Of a DNA stretch of 20,004 bases, positions 5,883-18,583 are shown one piece after another. Origin of the DNA: a virus (taxonomy: Duplodnaviria > Heunggongvirae > Uroviricota > Caudoviricetes); the IMG/VR virus record IMGVR_UViG_2698536418_000005; one strand, written 5' to 3'. Every line of letters starts with the position of its first letter. The first letter of the stretch is position 1. The notes under the pieces are model-generated. The model searched no databases, was not told the origin of the DNA, and was given only the letters and a program-made list of their open reading frames with translations. The translations under genes were made by a program, and so were the position numbers.

Positions 5883-6298
5883 GTCTTACCCCCAATAAGG
5901 GGATTTGCTCTATTTAATTAGGAATAAGGTCGATTACTGATAGAACAAATCCAGGCTACTGTGTTTAGTAATCAGATTTGTTCGTGACCGATATGCACGG
6001 GCAAAACGGCAGGAGGTTGTTAGCGCAGCCTCATGCCACCCGCTTTCACGAAGGTCATGCGTAGAAGGCCGCAGCATAACTATCACTGATGAGTTCAGGA
6101 TAGCCAGTGGCTACGGCTCAGTTTGGGTTGTGCTGTTGCTGGGCGGCGATGACGCCTGTACGCATTTGGTGATCCGGTTCTGCTTCCGGTATTCGCTTAA
6201 TTCAGCACAACGGAAAGAGCATTTATGGCTCGCATCGCGGGAAAAAGCCCACGGTAGAGAGTCGAACTCTACAAATGATCTTACCTGTTGCACAGACA

Positions 6299-13936: not shown

Positions 13937-13969
13937 TTATTTTGATGCCCTTTTTCAGGGCTGGAATGT
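13937..13969 (-). promoter_or_regulatory. nutR (boxA + boxB) N-utilisation site
   Basis: Minus strand: AGCTCTTAC (boxA-like), then GCCCTGAAAAAGGGC (boxB hairpin), between cro and cII; followed by weak ATGCA/TGCAT hairpin at tR1 position. Confidence 0.75.
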
Positions 13970-14257: not shown

Positions 14258-14313
14258 ACAAAAAATACATCTTGTGCATGGATGGTTTTAGTACAGAGCG
14301 TAATAATAAGGGT

Positions 14314-14973
14314 ATGAAAATGAAATGGTATGAACTGGCTAGATCCAGAATGAAAGAGCTCGGCATAACTCAAGAGAAGTTGGCTGAAGAGCTTGGTATG
14401 ACGCAGGGTGGAATTGGTCACTGGTTGCGCGGATCTCGTCATCCATCTCTTGACGAGATTGGTGTGGTGTTTAAATACCTTGGTATTGATAGCGTCTCAT
14501 TCAACCACGACGGTACATTTTCACCTGTTGGCGAATACTCATCTATCCCCGTTAAAAAACAATATGAGTACCCTGTTTTTTCTCATGTTCAGGCCGGGAT
14601 GTTCTCGCCTGAGCTTAGAACCTTTACCAAAGGTGATGCGGAGAGATGGGTCAGCACAACCAAAAAAGCCAGTGATTGTGCGTTCTGGCTTGAAGTTGAA
14701 GGTAATTCCATGACCGCACCAACAGGATCCAAGCCAAGCTTTCCTGACGGGATGTTAATTCTCGTTGACCCTGAGCAGGCTGTTGAGCCAGGTGATTTCT
14801 GCATAGCCAGACTTGGTGGTGACGAGTTTACTTTCAAGAAACTGATCAGGGATAGCGGTCAGGTGTTCCTACAACCACTAAACCCGCAATATCCAATGAT
14901 CCCATGCAATGATAGCTGTTCCGTTGTAGGGAAAGTTATCGCCAGCCAGTGGCCTGAAGAGACATTTAGTTAA
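14314..14973 (+). CDS. cI: CI repressor: novel HTH_XRE N-domain fused to lambda-like S24 autopeptidase C-domain
   Basis: C-terminal half ([36 protein letters not shown]...[26 protein letters not shown]...[26 protein letters not shown]) matches lambda cI from memory incl. Ala-Gly cleavage site and Ser/Lys dyad; N-terminal domain differs. Start 14314 or 14320 (track ORF begins at TTG 14272). Confidence 0.9.
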
Positions 14974-15004
14974 CAGCCTCACCACTCTAAAGCACACAAC
15001 AATA

Positions 15005-15033
15005 ACCCGACCTTAGTGTCGGGTTTTCTTTTT
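15005..15033 (+). terminator. Rho-independent terminator after cI
   Basis: ACCCGAC-cttagt-GTCGGGT stem-loop followed by TTTCTTTTTT, about 30 nt after cI stop. Confidence 0.65.
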
Positions 15034-15098
15034 CCAAAATATAAACCCATTAAATACAAAGCGTTATAAAAAACCAATTATATTTAGAACAGTTTGTA

Positions 15099-15127
15099 TT
15101 GACTCGATAAAGTACAAATCGTACTAT
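15099..15127 (+). promoter_or_regulatory. PL promoter with overlapping operator palindrome (OL1-like)
   Basis: TTGACT -35, 17-nt spacer, TACTAT -10; palindrome AGTACAAATCGTACT at about 15111-15125 overlaps spacer/-10. Confidence 0.5.
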
Positions 15128-15166
15128 TTAGCCATCAGCAGGACGCACTGACCACCATGAAGGTGA

Positions 15167-15197
15167 TGCTCTTAAAAATTAAGCCCTGAAGAAGGGC
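15167..15197 (+). promoter_or_regulatory. nutL (boxA + boxB)
   Basis: TGCTCTTAA (boxA-like) followed by GCCCTGAAGAAGGGC (boxB hairpin), upstream of N; matches lambda nutL from memory with one boxA mismatch. Confidence 0.8.
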
Positions 15198-15369
15198 AGC
15201 ATTCAAAGCAGAAGGCTTTGGGGTGTGGTGAAGGGTTCATGGATGGGAATATGTCGCACGTAAAGCGGCGAGGCCTGCGGAACTATTGCCGAATTGAAGT
15301 CGGCCGAAGCAGGTCGAAATGGGTCTCCCACCTACCACACCACCAAAGCTAACTGACAGGAGAATCCAG

Positions 15370-15702
15370 ATGGATGCACAAACACGCCGCCGCGAACGTC
15401 GCGCAGAGAAACAGGCTCAATGGAAAGCAGCAAATCCCCTGTTGGTTGGGGTAAGCGCTAAACCAGTTAACCGCCCTATTCTCTCGCTGAATCGCAAACC
15501 GAAATCACGAGTAGAAAGCGCACTGAATCCGATAGACCTTACAGTGCTGGCTGAATACCACGAACAGATTGAAAGCAACCTGCAGCGTATTGAGCGCAAG
15601 AATCAGCGCACATGGTACAGCAAGCCACGCAGTGAAATGGGTGTGACTTGCTCAGGCCGCCAGAAGCAACGCGGAAAATCAATTCCAGCTTATTACGATT
15701 GA
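15370..15702 (+). CDS. N: Antiterminator N, lambda N-like
   Basis: 110 aa from internal Met of track ORF 15319..15702: MDAQTRRRERRAEKQAQWKAANPLLVGVSAKPVNRPILSLNRKPKSR... (Arg-rich boxB-binding motif); CAGGAG RBS; C-terminal about 20 aa diverge from lambda. Confidence 0.95.
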   Translation: MDAQTRRRERRAEKQAQWKAANPLLVGVSAKPVNRPILSLNRKPKSRVESALNPIDLTVLAEYHEQIESNLQRIERKNQRTWYSKPRSEMGVTCSGRQKQRGKSIPAYYD

Positions 15703-15710
15703 GGTGAGCC

Positions 15711-15848
15711 ATGCTCAAGACAGTCAAACGCCGACTTTACAAAGAAGGTAGATATTCATGCCAGTTGCCAAAATGCGACACAACAAAATGGAGTGTCGAT
15801 GATTGGTGTAACTGGATAGATAGATGCGGAACTTGGTGGGATAAATAA
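15711..15848 (+). CDS. Possible small Cys/Trp-rich protein (45 aa)
   Basis: ATG 8 nt after N stop, GAGGTGAG RBS overlapping the N stop; MLKTVKRRLYKEGRYSCQLPKCDTTKWSVDDWCNWIDRCGTWWDK; below track cutoff. Confidence 0.35.
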   Translation: MLKTVKRRLYKEGRYSCQLPKCDTTKWSVDDWCNWIDRCGTWWDK

Positions 15849-15902
15849 CAGGTAACTTAAGCGGATTTATTTTCGCAGCAAACCACTTATTTGAGGTGAG
15901 AT

Positions 15903-16373
15903 ATGACAAAATCATGGAGCGTACCTTTTCCTGAATCAGAAACTGAACATGATGGAATGCCTGTTTTCTGGAGATTCCAGGCGACAGTTGAAGAAGATGG
16001 GATAAAAATATTCGCACTTCAATATATAGCTTTTCATCAGACAGACCATTATGCATGGTTGGTTCCTGCGCATTGGATTGTTAATTTTAAACCAGTACCA
16101 AATCAGTGGTTACAGGAATGGAAACAAAGGAGAAATAGATATGCAATTAAGAAAGTAGCAAAAAATGCAGAAAGATCTTTTGCATTCCCAACGAAGAAAC
16201 TTGCCATTGAAAGTTTATTGCGCCGGAAGAAATACCATTTAATGAGAATCAAACAAGATTTGGCTGTTGTATCAACTCTTGTTGATGGGATGAAGAATAT
16301 TGATACATCAACACCAGATATTGAATATAACTTTGGACACAACCAAGAAACAGAAAATTGGGTATTCTACTAG
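15903..16373 (+). CDS. Hypothetical protein A (156 aa), AT-rich accessory cassette, first gene
   Basis: Track ORF with GAGGTGAG RBS 4-5 nt upstream of ATG; AT-rich DNA unlike flanking phage DNA; no recognisable motifs; basic C-terminal half. Confidence 0.6.
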   Translation: MTKSWSVPFPESETEHDGMPVFWRFQATVEEDGIKIFALQYIAFHQTDHYAWLVPAHWIVNFKPVPNQWLQEWKQRRNRYAIKKVAKNAERSFAFPTKKLAIESLLRRKKYHLMRIKQDLAVVSTLVDGMKNIDTSTPDIEYNFGHNQETENWVFY

Positions 16374-16420
16374 GACGCATAGTCGGCCTTTATTTTTGGC
16401 ATAAACAATATGGGGTAAAA

Positions 16421-16747
16421 ATGAAAGTTTTAATGGTTTATGAAAATGTTCCAGAGTCGACTGAAATCTATATTTTTGATGCCAATGAAGATGAAGTTAA
16501 CGATTTGAAATTGTCTCACGGCAATTACACAAATGCTAATTGCGATGAAAGTATCGAAAAAGCACTATCACGAGTTCTTGTCAGAATTAGTGTTCCAGAA
16601 CATTGTGATGATGATTGGCTTTCTTATTGTGGAGCGGTAAAAACTGATGCAGGAAAATGGAGTAAAAGTAAAGTTGATAACTCAACTCCAATCATTATGA
16701 AAGATAGTGATATTGAAATGGTAATAATAACCGGAATGATTATGTAG
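16421..16747 (+). CDS. Hypothetical protein B (108 aa), AT-rich accessory cassette, second gene
   Basis: Internal ATG of track ORF 16358..16747 preceded by GGGG(T) RBS-like element; acidic, Cys-containing (NANCDE, HCDDDWLSYCG); no recognisable motifs. Confidence 0.55.
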   Translation: MKVLMVYENVPESTEIYIFDANEDEVNDLKLSHGNYTNANCDESIEKALSRVLVRISVPEHCDDDWLSYCGAVKTDAGKWSKSKVDNSTPIIMKDSDIEMVIITGMIM

Positions 16748-16852
16748 GCTGCGAATAAGCACTGTGTATTCATTCCAACGAGTGAATACACGGAGCAATG
16801 TCGCTCGTAACTAAACAGGAGCCGACTTGTTCTGATTATTGGAAATCTTCTT

Positions 16853-16876
16853 TGCCCTCCAGTGCGAGGGCTTTTT
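16853..16876 (+). terminator. Rho-independent terminator downstream of accessory cassette
   Basis: GCCCTC-cagtgc-GAGGGC stem-loop followed by TTTTTTAT, about 105 nt after gene B stop and before cIII. Confidence 0.6.
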
Positions 16877-16943
16877 TATATGCATACCAATAACGCTTCA
16901 CTTGAGGCGTTTTCGTTATGCAATCAAACAGAAGGAGCATCCT

Positions 16944-17114
16944 ATGCAACAGTTCGCTATTGCAGGGGCGGCATCGGTTCGCCCTTTCAACCCGATTTTA
17001 TCGGTGCAGCATTCACGAAAAAATATTTTAACCGGAGCAGACTTTAAACAACCAAGAATGAAAAGTTTGCTCGAAAAGCTTTGGGATATTTTGAAACAAC
17101 AAGGCCGTCCATGA
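16944..17114 (+). CDS. cIII: CIII-like protein (FtsH inhibitor), lambda cIII-like
   Basis: 56 aa from internal Met of track ORF 16839..17114 (MQQFAIAGAASV...LLEKLWDILKQQGRP); resembles lambda CIII (MQYAIAGW...) as recalled; AGGAG RBS 7 nt upstream. Confidence 0.7.
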   Translation: MQQFAIAGAASVRPFNPILSVQHSRKNILTGADFKQPRMKSLLEKLWDILKQQGRP

Positions 17115-17269
17115 GTTTTACAGATAACTGGTCAGACGAAGAATTCATTCGTCAGATGAAAGAATTAATCGGTAACGAAGGAGATATTCATGTCACTTGC
17201 AACCACAGTGAAGGAGAGCAAGTTACAGAGACGCATGTACACGCAGAAAGCTCTCTGGTATCGCCATAA
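17111..17269 (+). CDS. Hypothetical small acidic protein (52 aa), kil/ea10 slot
   Basis: ATG overlapping cIII stop (ATGA): MSFTDNWSDEEFIRQMKELIGNEGDIHVTCNHSEGEQ...; no recognised motif. Confidence 0.4.
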   Translation: MSFTDNWSDEEFIRQMKELIGNEGDIHVTCNHSEGEQVTETHVHAESSLVSP

Positions 17270-17368
17270 TGGCGACCGCGAAGGAATGCGGGTATGCCTT
17301 AATTTGTCCCGAGTCGAAGTATTAAATCAGCGTTATTTCCTTGGGCCTTGTCCATTCTGAGGTGAATT

Positions 17369-18076
17369 ATGGATTTGAACAAATTCGATGAGCCATTCAG
17401 CCCTGAAGATATCGAATGGCGAATACAGCAAAGCGGTAAAACACGCGATGGCAAGGTGTGGGCTATGGTGCTGGCTTATGTCACGAACCGGGCAATCATG
17501 AAACGCCTGGACGATGTTTGCGGCAAAGCAGGATGGCGCAATGAATACCGCGATATTCCCAACAACGGCGGCGTTGAATGCGGCATATCAATAAAGATTG
17601 ATTCCGAATGGGTAACCAAATGGGATGCTGCTGAAAACACGCAGGTAGAAGCCGTCAAAGGTGGTCGTTCCGGTGCAATGAAGCGCGCTGCCGTTCAGTG
17701 GGGAATCGGTCGGTATCTGTATAACCTTGAGGAAGGTTTCGCACAAACATCTCTCGATAAAAAGCAGGGGTGGCACAGGGCAAAACTGAAGGATGGAACA
17801 GGATTTTACTGGCTCCCTCCATCGCTTCCGGGATGGGCAATCCCAGCATCAGATAACAAACCATCACCAGAAAATACCAACCAGAAATCTCCATCGGTTG
17901 ACTGCGAACAAATCCTGAAAGACTTCAGCGATTATGCGTCAACAGAAACTGACAAGAAAAAACTCATCGAGCGTTATCAGCGTGACTGGCAATTAATGGC
18001 TGGCAATGAGGATGCGCAGGCTAAATGCGTTCAGGTAATGAGCATCAGAGTTAACGAACTAAAACAGGCGGCATAA
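17369..18076 (+). CDS. Single-strand annealing recombinase (Rad52-family SSAP), Bet-analogous position
   Basis: 235 aa; GAGGTGA RBS; Rad52-like core with VQWGIGRYLYNL motif; directly followed by ssb. Confidence 0.65.
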   Translation: MDLNKFDEPFSPEDIEWRIQQSGKTRDGKVWAMVLAYVTNRAIMKRLDDVCGKAGWRNEYRDIPNNGGVECGISIKIDSEWVTKWDAAENTQVEAVKGGRSGAMKRAAVQWGIGRYLYNLEEGFAQTSLDKKQGWHRAKLKDGTGFYWLPPSLPGWAIPASDNKPSPENTNQKSPSVDCEQILKDFSDYASTETDKKKLIERYQRDWQLMAGNEDAQAKCVQVMSIRVNELKQAA

Positions 18077-18583
18077 ATGGCAAGCAGAGGCGTAAATAAG
18101 GTGATTATCCTTGGTCGGGTAGGACAAGACCCGGAAGTTCGATACTCACCATCAGGAACAGCGTTCGCTAACCTGACAATAGCCACGTCAGAACAATGGC
18201 GAGATAAAAATACTGGCGAGCAAAAGGAATTGACTGAATGGCATCGTGTTGCTGTATCCGGGAAACTGGCTGAGGTCGTGGGGCAGTATGTGAAAAAAGG
18301 TGATCAGATTTATTTCGAGGGAATGCTGAGAACCAGAAAGTGGAAAGACCAGTCAGGGCAAGACCGTTACACAACCGAGGTTCATGTCGGAATTAATGGC
18401 GTGATGCAGATGCTTGGCGGCATTGGCGACAGCAAACAACAAGCAGCCAGCAGGCAATCACAGAAGCCACAGCAGCAATCATCACCAGCACAACACAACG
18501 AACCTCCGATGGATTTTGACGACGATATACCCTTTGCACCAGTAACTCTCCCCTTCCCTCGTCACGCTATTCACGCAATTTAA
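18077..18583 (+). CDS. ssb: Single-stranded DNA-binding protein SSB with C-terminal extension
   Basis: 168 aa; N-terminal OB fold matches E. coli SSB as recalled ([18 protein letters not shown]...TEWHRV...GQDRYTTEV), Gln-rich linker, acidic DFDDDIPF motif, then 15 extra residues ([15 protein letters not shown]) before the stop. Confidence 0.9.

What the first reader, a model, noticed from the sequence alone, without database searches (positions are those of the whole stretch)
15849..16760. AT-rich two-gene cassette of unknown function in the N-to-cIII slot: candidate novel exclusion/defence or anti-restriction pair
Two co-oriented ORFs (156 aa basic-tailed protein A; 108 aa acidic, Cys-containing protein B) lie between N and cIII, where lambda keeps ral, sieB and ea10, a slot in which lambdoid phages commonly carry host-benefiting or exclusion genes. 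The DNA is markedly more AT-rich than the flanking lambda-like sequence, indicating separate acquisition. Each gene has its own RBS, and a terminator at about 16853 closes the unit. I recognise no family, catalytic motif or transmembrane segment in either protein. Defence or exclusion function is inference from position only.
Basis: partly seen in the sequence, partly recalled or inferred. Interest (0 to 1): 0.8.

Follow-up and report, generated by a model that had tools for sequence, protein, structure and literature searches.

The report
Unlinked early phage genes, not a pair
The two AT-rich genes between N and cIII are real, conserved phage genes of unknown function, but they are unrelated neighbours joined by a rare recombination, and the "closing terminator" is the known lambda small RNA PreS.

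Summary
Both ORFs are real, AT-rich (36% and 33% GC against 48% for the window) and under purifying selection.

They are not a cassette:
- Gene A (15903-16373) is HK97 gp45 / 933W L0079 (phrog_1636). It occurs in about 11% of complete E. coli genomes, almost always alone between N and cIII.
- Gene B (16421-16747, phrog_4658) occurs in 0.3% of those genomes, usually just after ral. Distant relatives lie in early regions of virulent Klebsiella and T4-like phages.
- The A-B junction is absent from all 5,426 complete E. coli genomes. I saw it in only one other, near-identical assembly.

The terminator at 16854 is lambda tL2a, the 3' end of the lytic-cycle sRNA PreS/LPR1 (112 of 113 bases identical). 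Compared with lambda, gene B is a 353-bp insertion between the ral-downstream segment and PreS.

No internal promoter was found. The genes lie downstream of pL, nutL and N, and a terminator after cI separates them from the lysogenic transcript. This predicts early-lytic expression, not expression in lysogens.

Neither protein matches any defence, anti-restriction, Pfam or solved-structure family. B gives a pLDDT 96 model with no PDB neighbour.

Best reading: these are independent early accessory genes. B is plausibly a host-factor or counter-defence inhibitor, and A a basic protein that may bind nucleic acid. Both functions are inferred.

The parts
15099..15127 (+). pL-like promoter (TTGACT-17-TACTAT)
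   Evidence: Consensus scan. It lies just after the cI terminator (15004-15025) and upstream of nutL and N.
15183..15197 (+). nutL boxB (GCCCTGAAGAAGGGC)
   Evidence: Exact match to lambda boxB, with 0 matches expected by chance. This implies N-antiterminated transcription of everything downstream.
15367..15702 (+). Antiterminator N (lambda type)
   Evidence: ORF translation begins MDAQTRRRERRAEKQAQWK. The homologous gene is annotated as N in HK97 and E. coli.
15711..15848 (+). Small Cys-rich accessory ORF (45 aa, DUF5484 / phrog_1871)
   Evidence: Pfam PF17583, E 1.5e-12, above the curated cut-off; phrog_1871, E 4e-22. It is present in some A-bearing prophages (L021, Bas106) and absent in HK97.
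15903..16373 (+). Gene A: 156-aa member of the HK97 gp45 / 933W L0079 family (phrog_1636), with a basic central segment
16385..16405 (+). Remnant of the segment that follows ral in lambda (right arm of a hairpin plus T-run). It marks the recombination junction between the A and B modules.
   Evidence: 21 of 21 bases identical to lambda 34082-34062, which starts 5 nt after the ral stop codon. The left arm of the hairpin has been replaced, and the fold is no better than shuffled sequence (z 0.11). The hairpin is intact in Ral-B loci.
16421..16747 (+). Gene B: 108-aa acidic protein (phrog_4658), an independent accessory gene
16759..16879 (+). Homologue of lambda PreS/LPR1 sRNA ending in terminator tL2a (hairpin 16854-16871 plus T-run)
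   Evidence: 112 of 113 bases plus the T-run are identical to lambda 34045-33923, the ral-ea10 intergenic region. Lambda LPR1/PreS maps there with tL2a as its 3' end, and it is lytic-only and Hfq-bound (bioRxiv 10.1101/2024.10.31.621285). The segment is strongly structured (z -4.75), and the terminator scan finds it.
16892..16911 (+). Second hairpin followed by a T-rich run, upstream of cIII
   Evidence: Terminator-like scan hit. Fold z -2.1. It is conserved in HK97 and L013.
16944..17114 (+). cIII
   Evidence: phrog_550 'CIII', E 1e-22. Its position is conserved in HK97.

Best explanation
The region is the variable accessory region of a lambdoid early-left (pL) operon. It is not a two-gene system. 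It holds three genes that assort independently: the DUF5484 ORF, gene A (the HK97 gp45 family) and gene B (phrog_4658). After them comes the conserved PreS sRNA with terminator tL2a, and then cIII.

Shown:
- A and B have separate distributions and different usual neighbours.
- Their junction lies inside the hairpin that normally follows ral.
- Compared with lambda, B is a 353-bp insertion between that hairpin and PreS.
- Both genes are under purifying selection.

Inferred:
- Both genes are transcribed only from pL with N antitermination, early in lytic growth or after induction. They are silent in the repressed lysogen.
- They therefore act for the infecting phage and not as a defence of the lysogen.
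- B is a small, soluble, uniformly acidic protein with a compact fold not seen in the PDB. It is shared with virulent phages and usually sits next to ral. It most likely binds and inhibits a host protein, as a counter-defence or host-takeover factor.
- A has a conserved, strongly basic central segment and a long helix, and its distant relatives sit at the head of early operons. It most likely binds nucleic acid or a nucleic-acid-handling complex.
For: Independent assortment:
- A occurs in 593 of 5,426 complete E. coli genomes, B in 16, and the contiguous A+B+PreS stretch in none.
- The exact A protein is followed directly by cIII in 23 of 24 contigs read.
- The exact B protein is preceded by Ral at a fixed 40-nt spacing in at least 22 of 24 contigs. 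Elsewhere it is preceded by an Nmad5 protein or by another ORF.
- HK97 has the order N, gp45, terminator, cIII, with no B.

Junction anatomy:
- Window 16385-16405 equals lambda 34082-34062, and window 16759-16879 equals lambda 34045-33923.

Expression:
- The order is the cI terminator at 15004-15025, then pL 15099-15127, then nutL boxB 15183-15197, then N. No promoter-like site lies upstream of A or B.
- Lambda PreS, the conserved segment immediately downstream in the same early-left operon, is detected only in the lytic cycle.

B in virulent phages:
- Relatives occur in Jedunavirus-like Klebsiella phages, in T4-like JC221 between ndd and the holin gene, and in Stephanstirmvirinae.
- Diverged B genes in other lambdoid phages still sit between N or the repressor and cIII or kil.

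Protein properties:
- The B family has net charge -6 to -18 and a pLDDT 96 model.
- The central segment of the A superfamily has net charge +5 to +14.
- dN/dS is 0.08-0.28.

Context from the literature:
- The ral-containing region is a recognised phage accessory region carrying genes associated with counter-defence (bioRxiv 10.1101/2023.04.06.535777).
Against: - No biochemical or genetic function is known for either family, so the functional part rests on position, charge and phylogenetic distribution only.
- B matches no known anti-restriction or anti-defence protein, by sequence or by fold.
- The Ral-B linkage holds only for the E. coli variant. Diverged homologues lack Ral.
- The promoter scan is a simple sigma-70 consensus search. 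An atypical internal promoter, such as the one lambda sieB has, cannot be excluded without RNA data.
- Only one of the five AF2 models of A was confident (82.8, against 51-59 for the others), so inferences from A's shape are weak.
Confidence: 0.6

Rival explanations
1. A and B form a two-gene defence or superinfection-exclusion system that the prophage expresses to protect its host.
For: - The N-cIII slot holds sieB in lambda, and nearby slots hold defence genes. For example, BstA lies next to the repressor in a Serratia prophage that carries a B homologue (L008).
- AT-rich, separately acquired DNA is typical of morons, including genes that benefit the host.
Against: - The genes do not co-occur.
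- There were no PADLOC hits.
- No internal promoter was found, and a terminator after cI insulates the region.
- The adjacent PreS segment is silent in lambda lysogens.
- The B family is present in strictly virulent phages.
- Neither protein has a transmembrane segment, unlike SieB, Imm or Sp.
Confidence: 0.05
2. B specifically alleviates restriction, for example as an inhibitor or modulator of type I R-M that works alongside Ral. A is unrelated.
For: - In E. coli prophages B lies 40 nt downstream of ral in at least 22 of 24 contigs. In one diverged locus it lies close to ral (L006).
- The family is uniformly acidic, as many anti-restriction proteins are.
- In T4-like phages B sits in an early region of small genes of unknown function, next to ndd.
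Against: - There are no matches to Ral, Lar, ArdA, Ocr or KlcA among Pfam families or PDB chains.
- Net charge is about -10 over 108 aa. From my own recollection, classical DNA mimics are much more acidic than this.
- Diverged homologues lack Ral.
- B is absent from conjugative plasmids, where general anti-restriction genes are common.
Confidence: 0.15
3. A is an early regulator of the phage itself. It would bind DNA or RNA and tune pL-operon expression or the lysis-lysogeny decision, and would not be a factor directed at the host.
For: - A lies immediately after N in HK97, 933W and hundreds of prophages.
- Distant relatives are the first or second gene of early operons at divergent promoter regions in Vibrio phage PvVp04 and in Bas81.
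- The basic central segment is conserved, and a long helix is predicted at residues 98-130.
Against: - Many lambdoid phages, lambda included, lack A, so it is dispensable.
- No HTH, RHH or AP2 signature was found.
Confidence: 0.15
4. The ORFs are decaying or functionless passenger DNA.
For: - Both genes are dispensable across related phages.
- No function is known for either.
Against: - dN/dS is 0.08-0.28.
- Full-length conservation extends down to 25-50% identity.
- B gives a confident AF2 fold.
Confidence: 0.03

Closest known systems
HK97 gp45 / 933W L0079 (phrog_1636), hypothetical early protein
   Same: Gene A is 98% identical over all 156 residues and sits in the same position, downstream of N and upstream of the tL2a-like terminator and cIII.
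   Different: In the window A is followed by gene B, not directly by the terminator, and it is preceded by a DUF5484 ORF that HK97 lacks. No function has been reported for the family.
The ral - PreS/tL2a - ea10 segment of the lambda pL operon
   Same: The window has the same operon and the same flanking non-coding sequences: 21 of 21 bases after ral, and 112 of 113 bases of PreS/tL2a. Gene B occupies the position between them.
   Different: ral has been replaced by A, and ea10 is absent. B is a 353-bp insertion where lambda has 16 nt.
Phage accessory regions carrying counter-defence genes (Silas et al. preprint 10.1101/2023.04.06.535777; ral-containing region)
   Same: The region is variable, its genes assort independently, and it is bounded by conserved core genes. 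It contains ral in most relatives.
   Different: No counter-defence or cell-death-trigger phenotype has been shown for A or B. The one gene from that region with a phenotype, orf184, begins MEALVVERSEDGYWT and is neither A nor B.
Morons as described in the HK97/HK022 comparative genomics literature (definition from my own knowledge)
   Same: Extra genes with an atypical, AT-rich composition, present in some relatives and absent in others, inserted between genes of a conserved operon.
   Different: No promoter of their own was detected. The flanking terminators belong to the backbone (the ral hairpin and tL2a) and not to the inserted genes.

Membership tests
phrog_1636 (HK97 gp45 family), gene A | Full-length profile match and near-identity to HK97 gp45 | tested here: met
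   E 2.2e-111 over residues 1-156 of 156. 98% amino-acid identity to HK97 gp45.
phrog_4658, gene B | Full-length profile match | tested here: met
   E 3.3e-38, residues 1-108 against profile positions 2-109 of 109.
Conserved two-gene system (functional pair) | The two genes co-occur and lie adjacent across genomes, including diverged homologues | tested here: not met
   No complete E. coli genome (0 of 5,426) has the two genes adjacent, although 593 have A and 16 have B. A has no B next to it in 23 of 24 contigs. B has Ral, Nmad5 or N upstream in other loci.
Known anti-phage defence systems (PADLOC-DB v2) | HMM match to a component of a known or candidate defence system | tested here: not met
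   No families at E <= 1 for A, B or the DUF5484 ORF.
Prophage-expressed exclusion genes (sieB or rex type) | Expression in the repressed lysogen from a promoter of their own | tested here: inconclusive
   The consensus scan found no promoter-like site upstream of A or B, and a cI terminator lies upstream of pL. The neighbouring PreS segment is lytic-only in lambda. There are no RNA data for this phage.
Prophage-expressed exclusion genes (sieB or rex type) | Membrane association (transmembrane segments) | tested here: not met
   Both proteins are hydrophilic (GRAVY -0.57 and -0.24) and are predicted to be soluble and globular.
Known anti-restriction proteins (Ral, Lar, ArdA, Ocr, KlcA/ArdB) | Sequence or fold similarity to a family member | tested here: not met
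Known anti-restriction proteins (Ral, Lar, ArdA, Ocr, KlcA/ArdB) | Relief of restriction in vivo | not testable with these tools
   This needs plating assays on restricting hosts.
Lambda PreS/LPR1 sRNA with terminator tL2a (for 16759-16879) | Sequence identity to the lambda ral-ea10 intergenic segment, ending in a GC-rich hairpin and a U-run | tested here: met
   112 of 113 bases plus the T-run are identical to lambda 34045-33923. The hairpin is at 16854-16871 and is followed by TTTTTT.
Lambda PreS/LPR1 sRNA with terminator tL2a (for 16759-16879) | Accumulation as an RNA of about 88 or 68 nt, Hfq binding, and regulation of dnaN | not testable with these tools
   There are no RNA data for this phage, and Rfam has no model for it.
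Moron | Atypical base composition and presence/absence polymorphism among close relatives | tested here: met
   GC is 33-36% against 48%. HK97 lacks B, lambda lacks both A and B, and L009-L014 lack A.
Moron | A promoter and terminator of its own flanking the gene | tested here: not met
   No promoter-like site was found. The flanking hairpins are backbone sequences shared with lambda.

The most novel reading that the evidence does not exclude
Gene B would be the founding member of a structurally new family of small acidic early proteins, shared by temperate lambdoid phages and by virulent T4-like, Jedunavirus-like and Stephanstirmvirinae phages of Enterobacterales. Its conserved polar residues (E12, H33, Y36, N38, T104, G105) might form a binding site, although I could not check whether they cluster in the model. 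Through them it would inhibit a host immune or housekeeping factor that has not yet been identified. That would make it a new class of counter-defence protein, riding next to ral.
Probability: 0.3. Interest if true: 0.6.

Novelty: new member of a known kind. Interest (0 to 1): 0.3.

Why it matters
As posed, a novel defence pair, the finding does not hold up, so it should not be followed as a two-gene system.

What remains is modest but useful:
- **Mosaic exchange.** The locus shows cleanly how the lambdoid pL accessory region is rebuilt at conserved non-coding joints, namely the ral-downstream hairpin and PreS/tL2a.
- **PreS.** The recently described PreS sRNA is conserved here and in HK97-type phages, whatever gene lies upstream of it.
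- **Two candidates for testing.** Gene A is carried by about one in nine complete E. coli genomes, including Stx phages, and has no known function. Gene B has a very confident predicted fold with no solved-structure neighbour and is shared with virulent phages. That makes B a reasonable entry for counter-defence screens.

Tried and rejected
- **Borderline family hits.** The Pfam and NCBIfam hits for A (Tmem26, zf-H2C2) and B (Rep_fac-A_C, plant ferredoxin, taurine dioxygenase) are all far below the curated cut-offs and were dismissed.
- **AP2 or integrase-like DNA-binding domain in A.** The motif RSFAFPTKKLAIE suggested this. hhalign against an HNH-AP2 protein gave probability 0.2, so it was rejected.
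- **BFVD Foldseek search for A.** It returned only uncharacterised phage proteins.
- **AFDB50 fold search for B.** The library was not available.
- **Rfam scan of 14900-17400.** Nothing meaningful was found, and there is no PreS model.
- **ORFs on the minus strand across A and B.** No PHROG matches.
- **Literature searches by identifier** (HK97 gp45, L0079, NP_037731, HK97p36, phrog ids, WP_001554880, DUF5484). Nothing relevant was found.
- **Accessory-gene screen (Silas et al.).** I checked whether A or B was among the genes tested. orf184, from the ral region, is a different protein. No peptide or accession match was found in the supplements that are held as text. Whether A or B was screened remains unknown.
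- **Plasmid search.** Neither gene lies on conjugative plasmids.
- **A count I corrected.** My first figure for A in E. coli, 2,238 genomes, was inflated by matches to the PreS segment alone. The query with A alone gives 593-598 genomes.

Full report
**Setting.** The window is a P22/CUS-3-like lambdoid E. coli phage with an HK97-like early region. On the + strand the order is as follows.

| Coordinates | Feature |
|---|---|
| 14272-14973 | cI |
| 15004-15025 | hairpin terminator after cI |
| 15099-15127 | pL-like promoter |
| 15183-15197 | exact lambda nutL boxB |
| 15367-15702 | N |
| 15711-15848 | 45-aa DUF5484 ORF |
| 15903-16373 | gene A |
| 16421-16747 | gene B |
| 16854-16877 | hairpin and T-run terminator |
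| 16892-16911 | second hairpin |
| 16944-17114 | cIII |

A Rad52-like annealing protein and an SSB follow cIII.

**Checking the observation.**
- Both ORFs are real. Each has full-length homologues, and dN/dS is 0.09-0.18 for A and 0.075-0.28 for B.
- They are AT-rich: 36.1% and 33.0% GC, against 48.3% for the window.
- Minus-strand ORFs across them match nothing.
- Three details in the finding are wrong or incomplete. A's basic segment is central (residues 61-120, net +13) and its tail is acidic. B's cysteines are not conserved. Both proteins belong to catalogued phage families of unknown function, phrog_1636 and phrog_4658, and A is HK97 gp45 / 933W L0079.

**They are not a pair.**
- HK97 has the order N, gp45, terminator, cIII, with no B.
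- Among 5,426 complete E. coli genomes, A is in 593-598 and the B module is in 16. The contiguous A-B-terminator stretch is in none.
- The exact A protein is followed directly by cIII in 23 of 24 contigs read.
- The exact B protein is listed in 785 blocks of the collection. In at least 22 of 24 contigs read it lies 40 nt downstream of ral. In other loci its upstream neighbour is an Nmad5 protein or another ORF (L013).
- Diverged B homologues (46-52% identity) in other lambdoid prophages follow N or the repressor and precede cIII or kil, again without A.
- The only other A-B junction I found is a metagenome scaffold that is 99.95% identical to the window over 8.1 kb. The junction is therefore real but is a rare, recent mosaic.

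**Anatomy of the junction and the 'closing terminator'.**
- Window 16759-16879 is identical to lambda 34045-33923 at 112 of 113 positions plus the T-run. Window 16385-16405 is identical to lambda 34082-34062, the 21 nt that start 5 nt after the ral stop codon.
- In lambda these two segments are 16 nt apart. Here they are 353 nt apart, and the extra sequence is gene B.
- In Ral-B loci the upstream segment forms an intact hairpin and T-run across the end of ral. In the window its left arm has been replaced by the 3' flank of A, and the hairpin is lost (z 0.11). That places the A/B recombination joint inside the hairpin.
- The downstream segment is the lambda ral-ea10 intergenic region. A 2024 preprint maps the Hfq-dependent sRNA LPR1/PreS there. 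It runs at about 88 and 68 nt, its 3' end is terminator tL2a, it is expressed in the lytic cycle but not in the lysogenic cycle, and it up-regulates host dnaN (bioRxiv 10.1101/2024.10.31.621285).
- The segment is strongly structured (z -4.75). It occurs in about 2,100 of the 5,426 E. coli genomes whatever gene lies upstream, and it follows gp45 directly in HK97.
- The terminator is therefore a backbone element. It is not part of a cassette.

**Expression (inferred).** No promoter-like site lies upstream of A or B. The region as a whole has fewer promoter-like hits than shuffled sequence (4 against 5.4 expected). The genes follow pL, nutL and N, and a terminator after cI separates them from the pRM transcript. 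The adjacent PreS segment is silent in lambda lysogens. The simplest prediction is expression that depends on pL and N, early in lytic growth only. A consensus scan cannot rule out an atypical promoter.

**What the proteins look like: gene A.**
- There is no Pfam, NCBIfam or PADLOC match.
- A profile search of 1.84 billion representative proteins found 96 clusters at E <= 1e-3. Apart from truncated fragments and one 940-aa repeat protein judged spurious (P0103), all are stand-alone proteins of about 130-155 aa, and those tested have no Pfam domain. All fall in PHROGs of unknown function.
- The superfamily keeps a strongly basic central segment (net +5 to +14).
- Conserved motifs are G33, E/Q46-T47, K87 and RFAF-x-TKE-x-A.
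- Distant members lie at the head of early operons in a Vibrio phage and in Bas81.
- The best AF2 model (pLDDT 82.8; the other four models scored 51-59) shows three long strands, short helices and a helix at residues 98-130.

**What the proteins look like: gene B.**
- Relatives at 25-50% identity occur in three groups of virulent phages: Klebsiella phages of about 48 kb, T4-like phages (in JC221 between ndd and the holin gene), and Stephanstirmvirinae, where B sits next to Ter-like genes.
- The family is uniformly acidic (net -6 to -18, pI 4.1-5.0).
- L4, P11, N38 and G105 are invariant. E12, H33, Y36, L56 and T104 are nearly invariant.
- All five AF2 models are confident (pLDDT 94.9-96.0, pTM 0.88).
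- Neither gene is on conjugative plasmids.

**Interpretation.** What the evidence shows is an accessory region made of independently exchanged early genes, followed by a conserved sRNA and terminator. The functional reading is inference.
- Several points argue against a defence role in the lysogen: presence in virulent phages, predicted lytic-only expression, lack of membrane segments and lack of defence-family matches.
- They favour functions directed at the host during infection.
- For B, the linkage to ral, the conserved acidity and the compact fold make inhibition of a host protein (counter-defence or takeover) the leading guess.
- For A, the conserved basic segment and the position early in the operon suggest binding to nucleic acid or to a nucleic-acid-handling complex.
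- The ral-containing region has been treated as a counter-defence-associated accessory region in a functional screen. The one gene from that region with a reported phenotype, orf184, is a different protein. I could not establish whether A or B was ever tested.

**Verdict.** The 'pair' and 'defence' readings are not supported, and anti-restriction or counter-defence survives only as an untested guess for B alone. Both genes are already catalogued hypothetical phage proteins, and the arrangement is a rare mosaic. Interest is low to moderate. The most valuable leftovers are B's confident, unmatched fold and the recognition of PreS/tL2a at this locus.

Noticed in passing
window 16759-16879: This non-coding segment matches the lambda ral-ea10 intergenic region at 112 of 113 bases, that is the PreS/LPR1 Hfq-dependent sRNA ending at tL2a. 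Part of it matches in about 2,100 of 5,426 complete E. coli genomes, and it follows gp45 directly in HK97. Rfam has no model for it.
   Followed up: yes
window 15711-15848: A third accessory ORF lies between N and gene A. It is 45 aa, basic, has 4 Cys and several Trp, and matches DUF5484 (PF17583) / phrog_1871. It is present in some A-bearing prophages and absent in HK97. The finding's coordinates leave it out.
   Followed up: partly
window 16385-16405, and L009/L013 about 5950-5990: The hairpin and T-run just after ral (AAGGCCACC-TGAT-GGTGGCCTT-TATTTTT in L013) looks like an intrinsic terminator and acts as a recombination joint. In the window only its right arm survives.
   Followed up: partly
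window 16892-16911: A second hairpin followed by a T-rich run lies between PreS/tL2a and cIII. It is conserved in HK97 and L013 but absent in lambda. Its role is unknown; it could be another tL2-type terminator or a processing site.
   Followed up: no
window 13947-13961 and 15183-15197: Lambda-type nutR boxB (one mismatch to the nutL boxB query pattern) and nutL boxB (exact) are both present, so this P22-like phage uses a lambda N/nut antitermination module.
   Followed up: partly
window 17081-17269 and 17369-18583: A small ORF (phrog_2123, annotated 'recombinase', probably starting at 17111) overlaps the end of cIII. It is followed by a Rad52/Rad22-type annealing protein and an SSB. No kil gene was seen between cIII and the recombination genes, unlike HK97.
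   Followed up: no
L008 2029-2955 (Serratia marcescens prophage): A protein with a BstA C-terminal domain (the abortive-infection defence BstA) lies directly after the prophage repressor, about 1 kb upstream of a B homologue. In this phage group a real defence gene sits in the repressor-proximal slot, separate from the B position.
   Followed up: no
L015 2880-3503 (E. coli SY038 prophage): A 207-aa 'Nmad5 family putative nucleotide modification protein' occupies the position between N and gene B, where other prophages have ral or gene A.
   Followed up: no
L005 3001-4716 and L031 3501-5272 (Stephanstirmvirinae-like phages): In both loci the B homologue lies immediately upstream of a vWA-TerF-like gene and TerD-family genes, with TelA or TerC nearby. 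This synteny with tellurite-resistance-like stress genes is unexplained.
   Followed up: no
L009 6818-7786, L011 6819-7787, L012 6473-7441, L001 3824-4792: A recurrent 322-aa protein with no Pfam hit sits between the Ral-B (or A) genes and cIII in several prophages and in phage Bas106. It is another large gene of unknown function in this accessory region.
   Followed up: no
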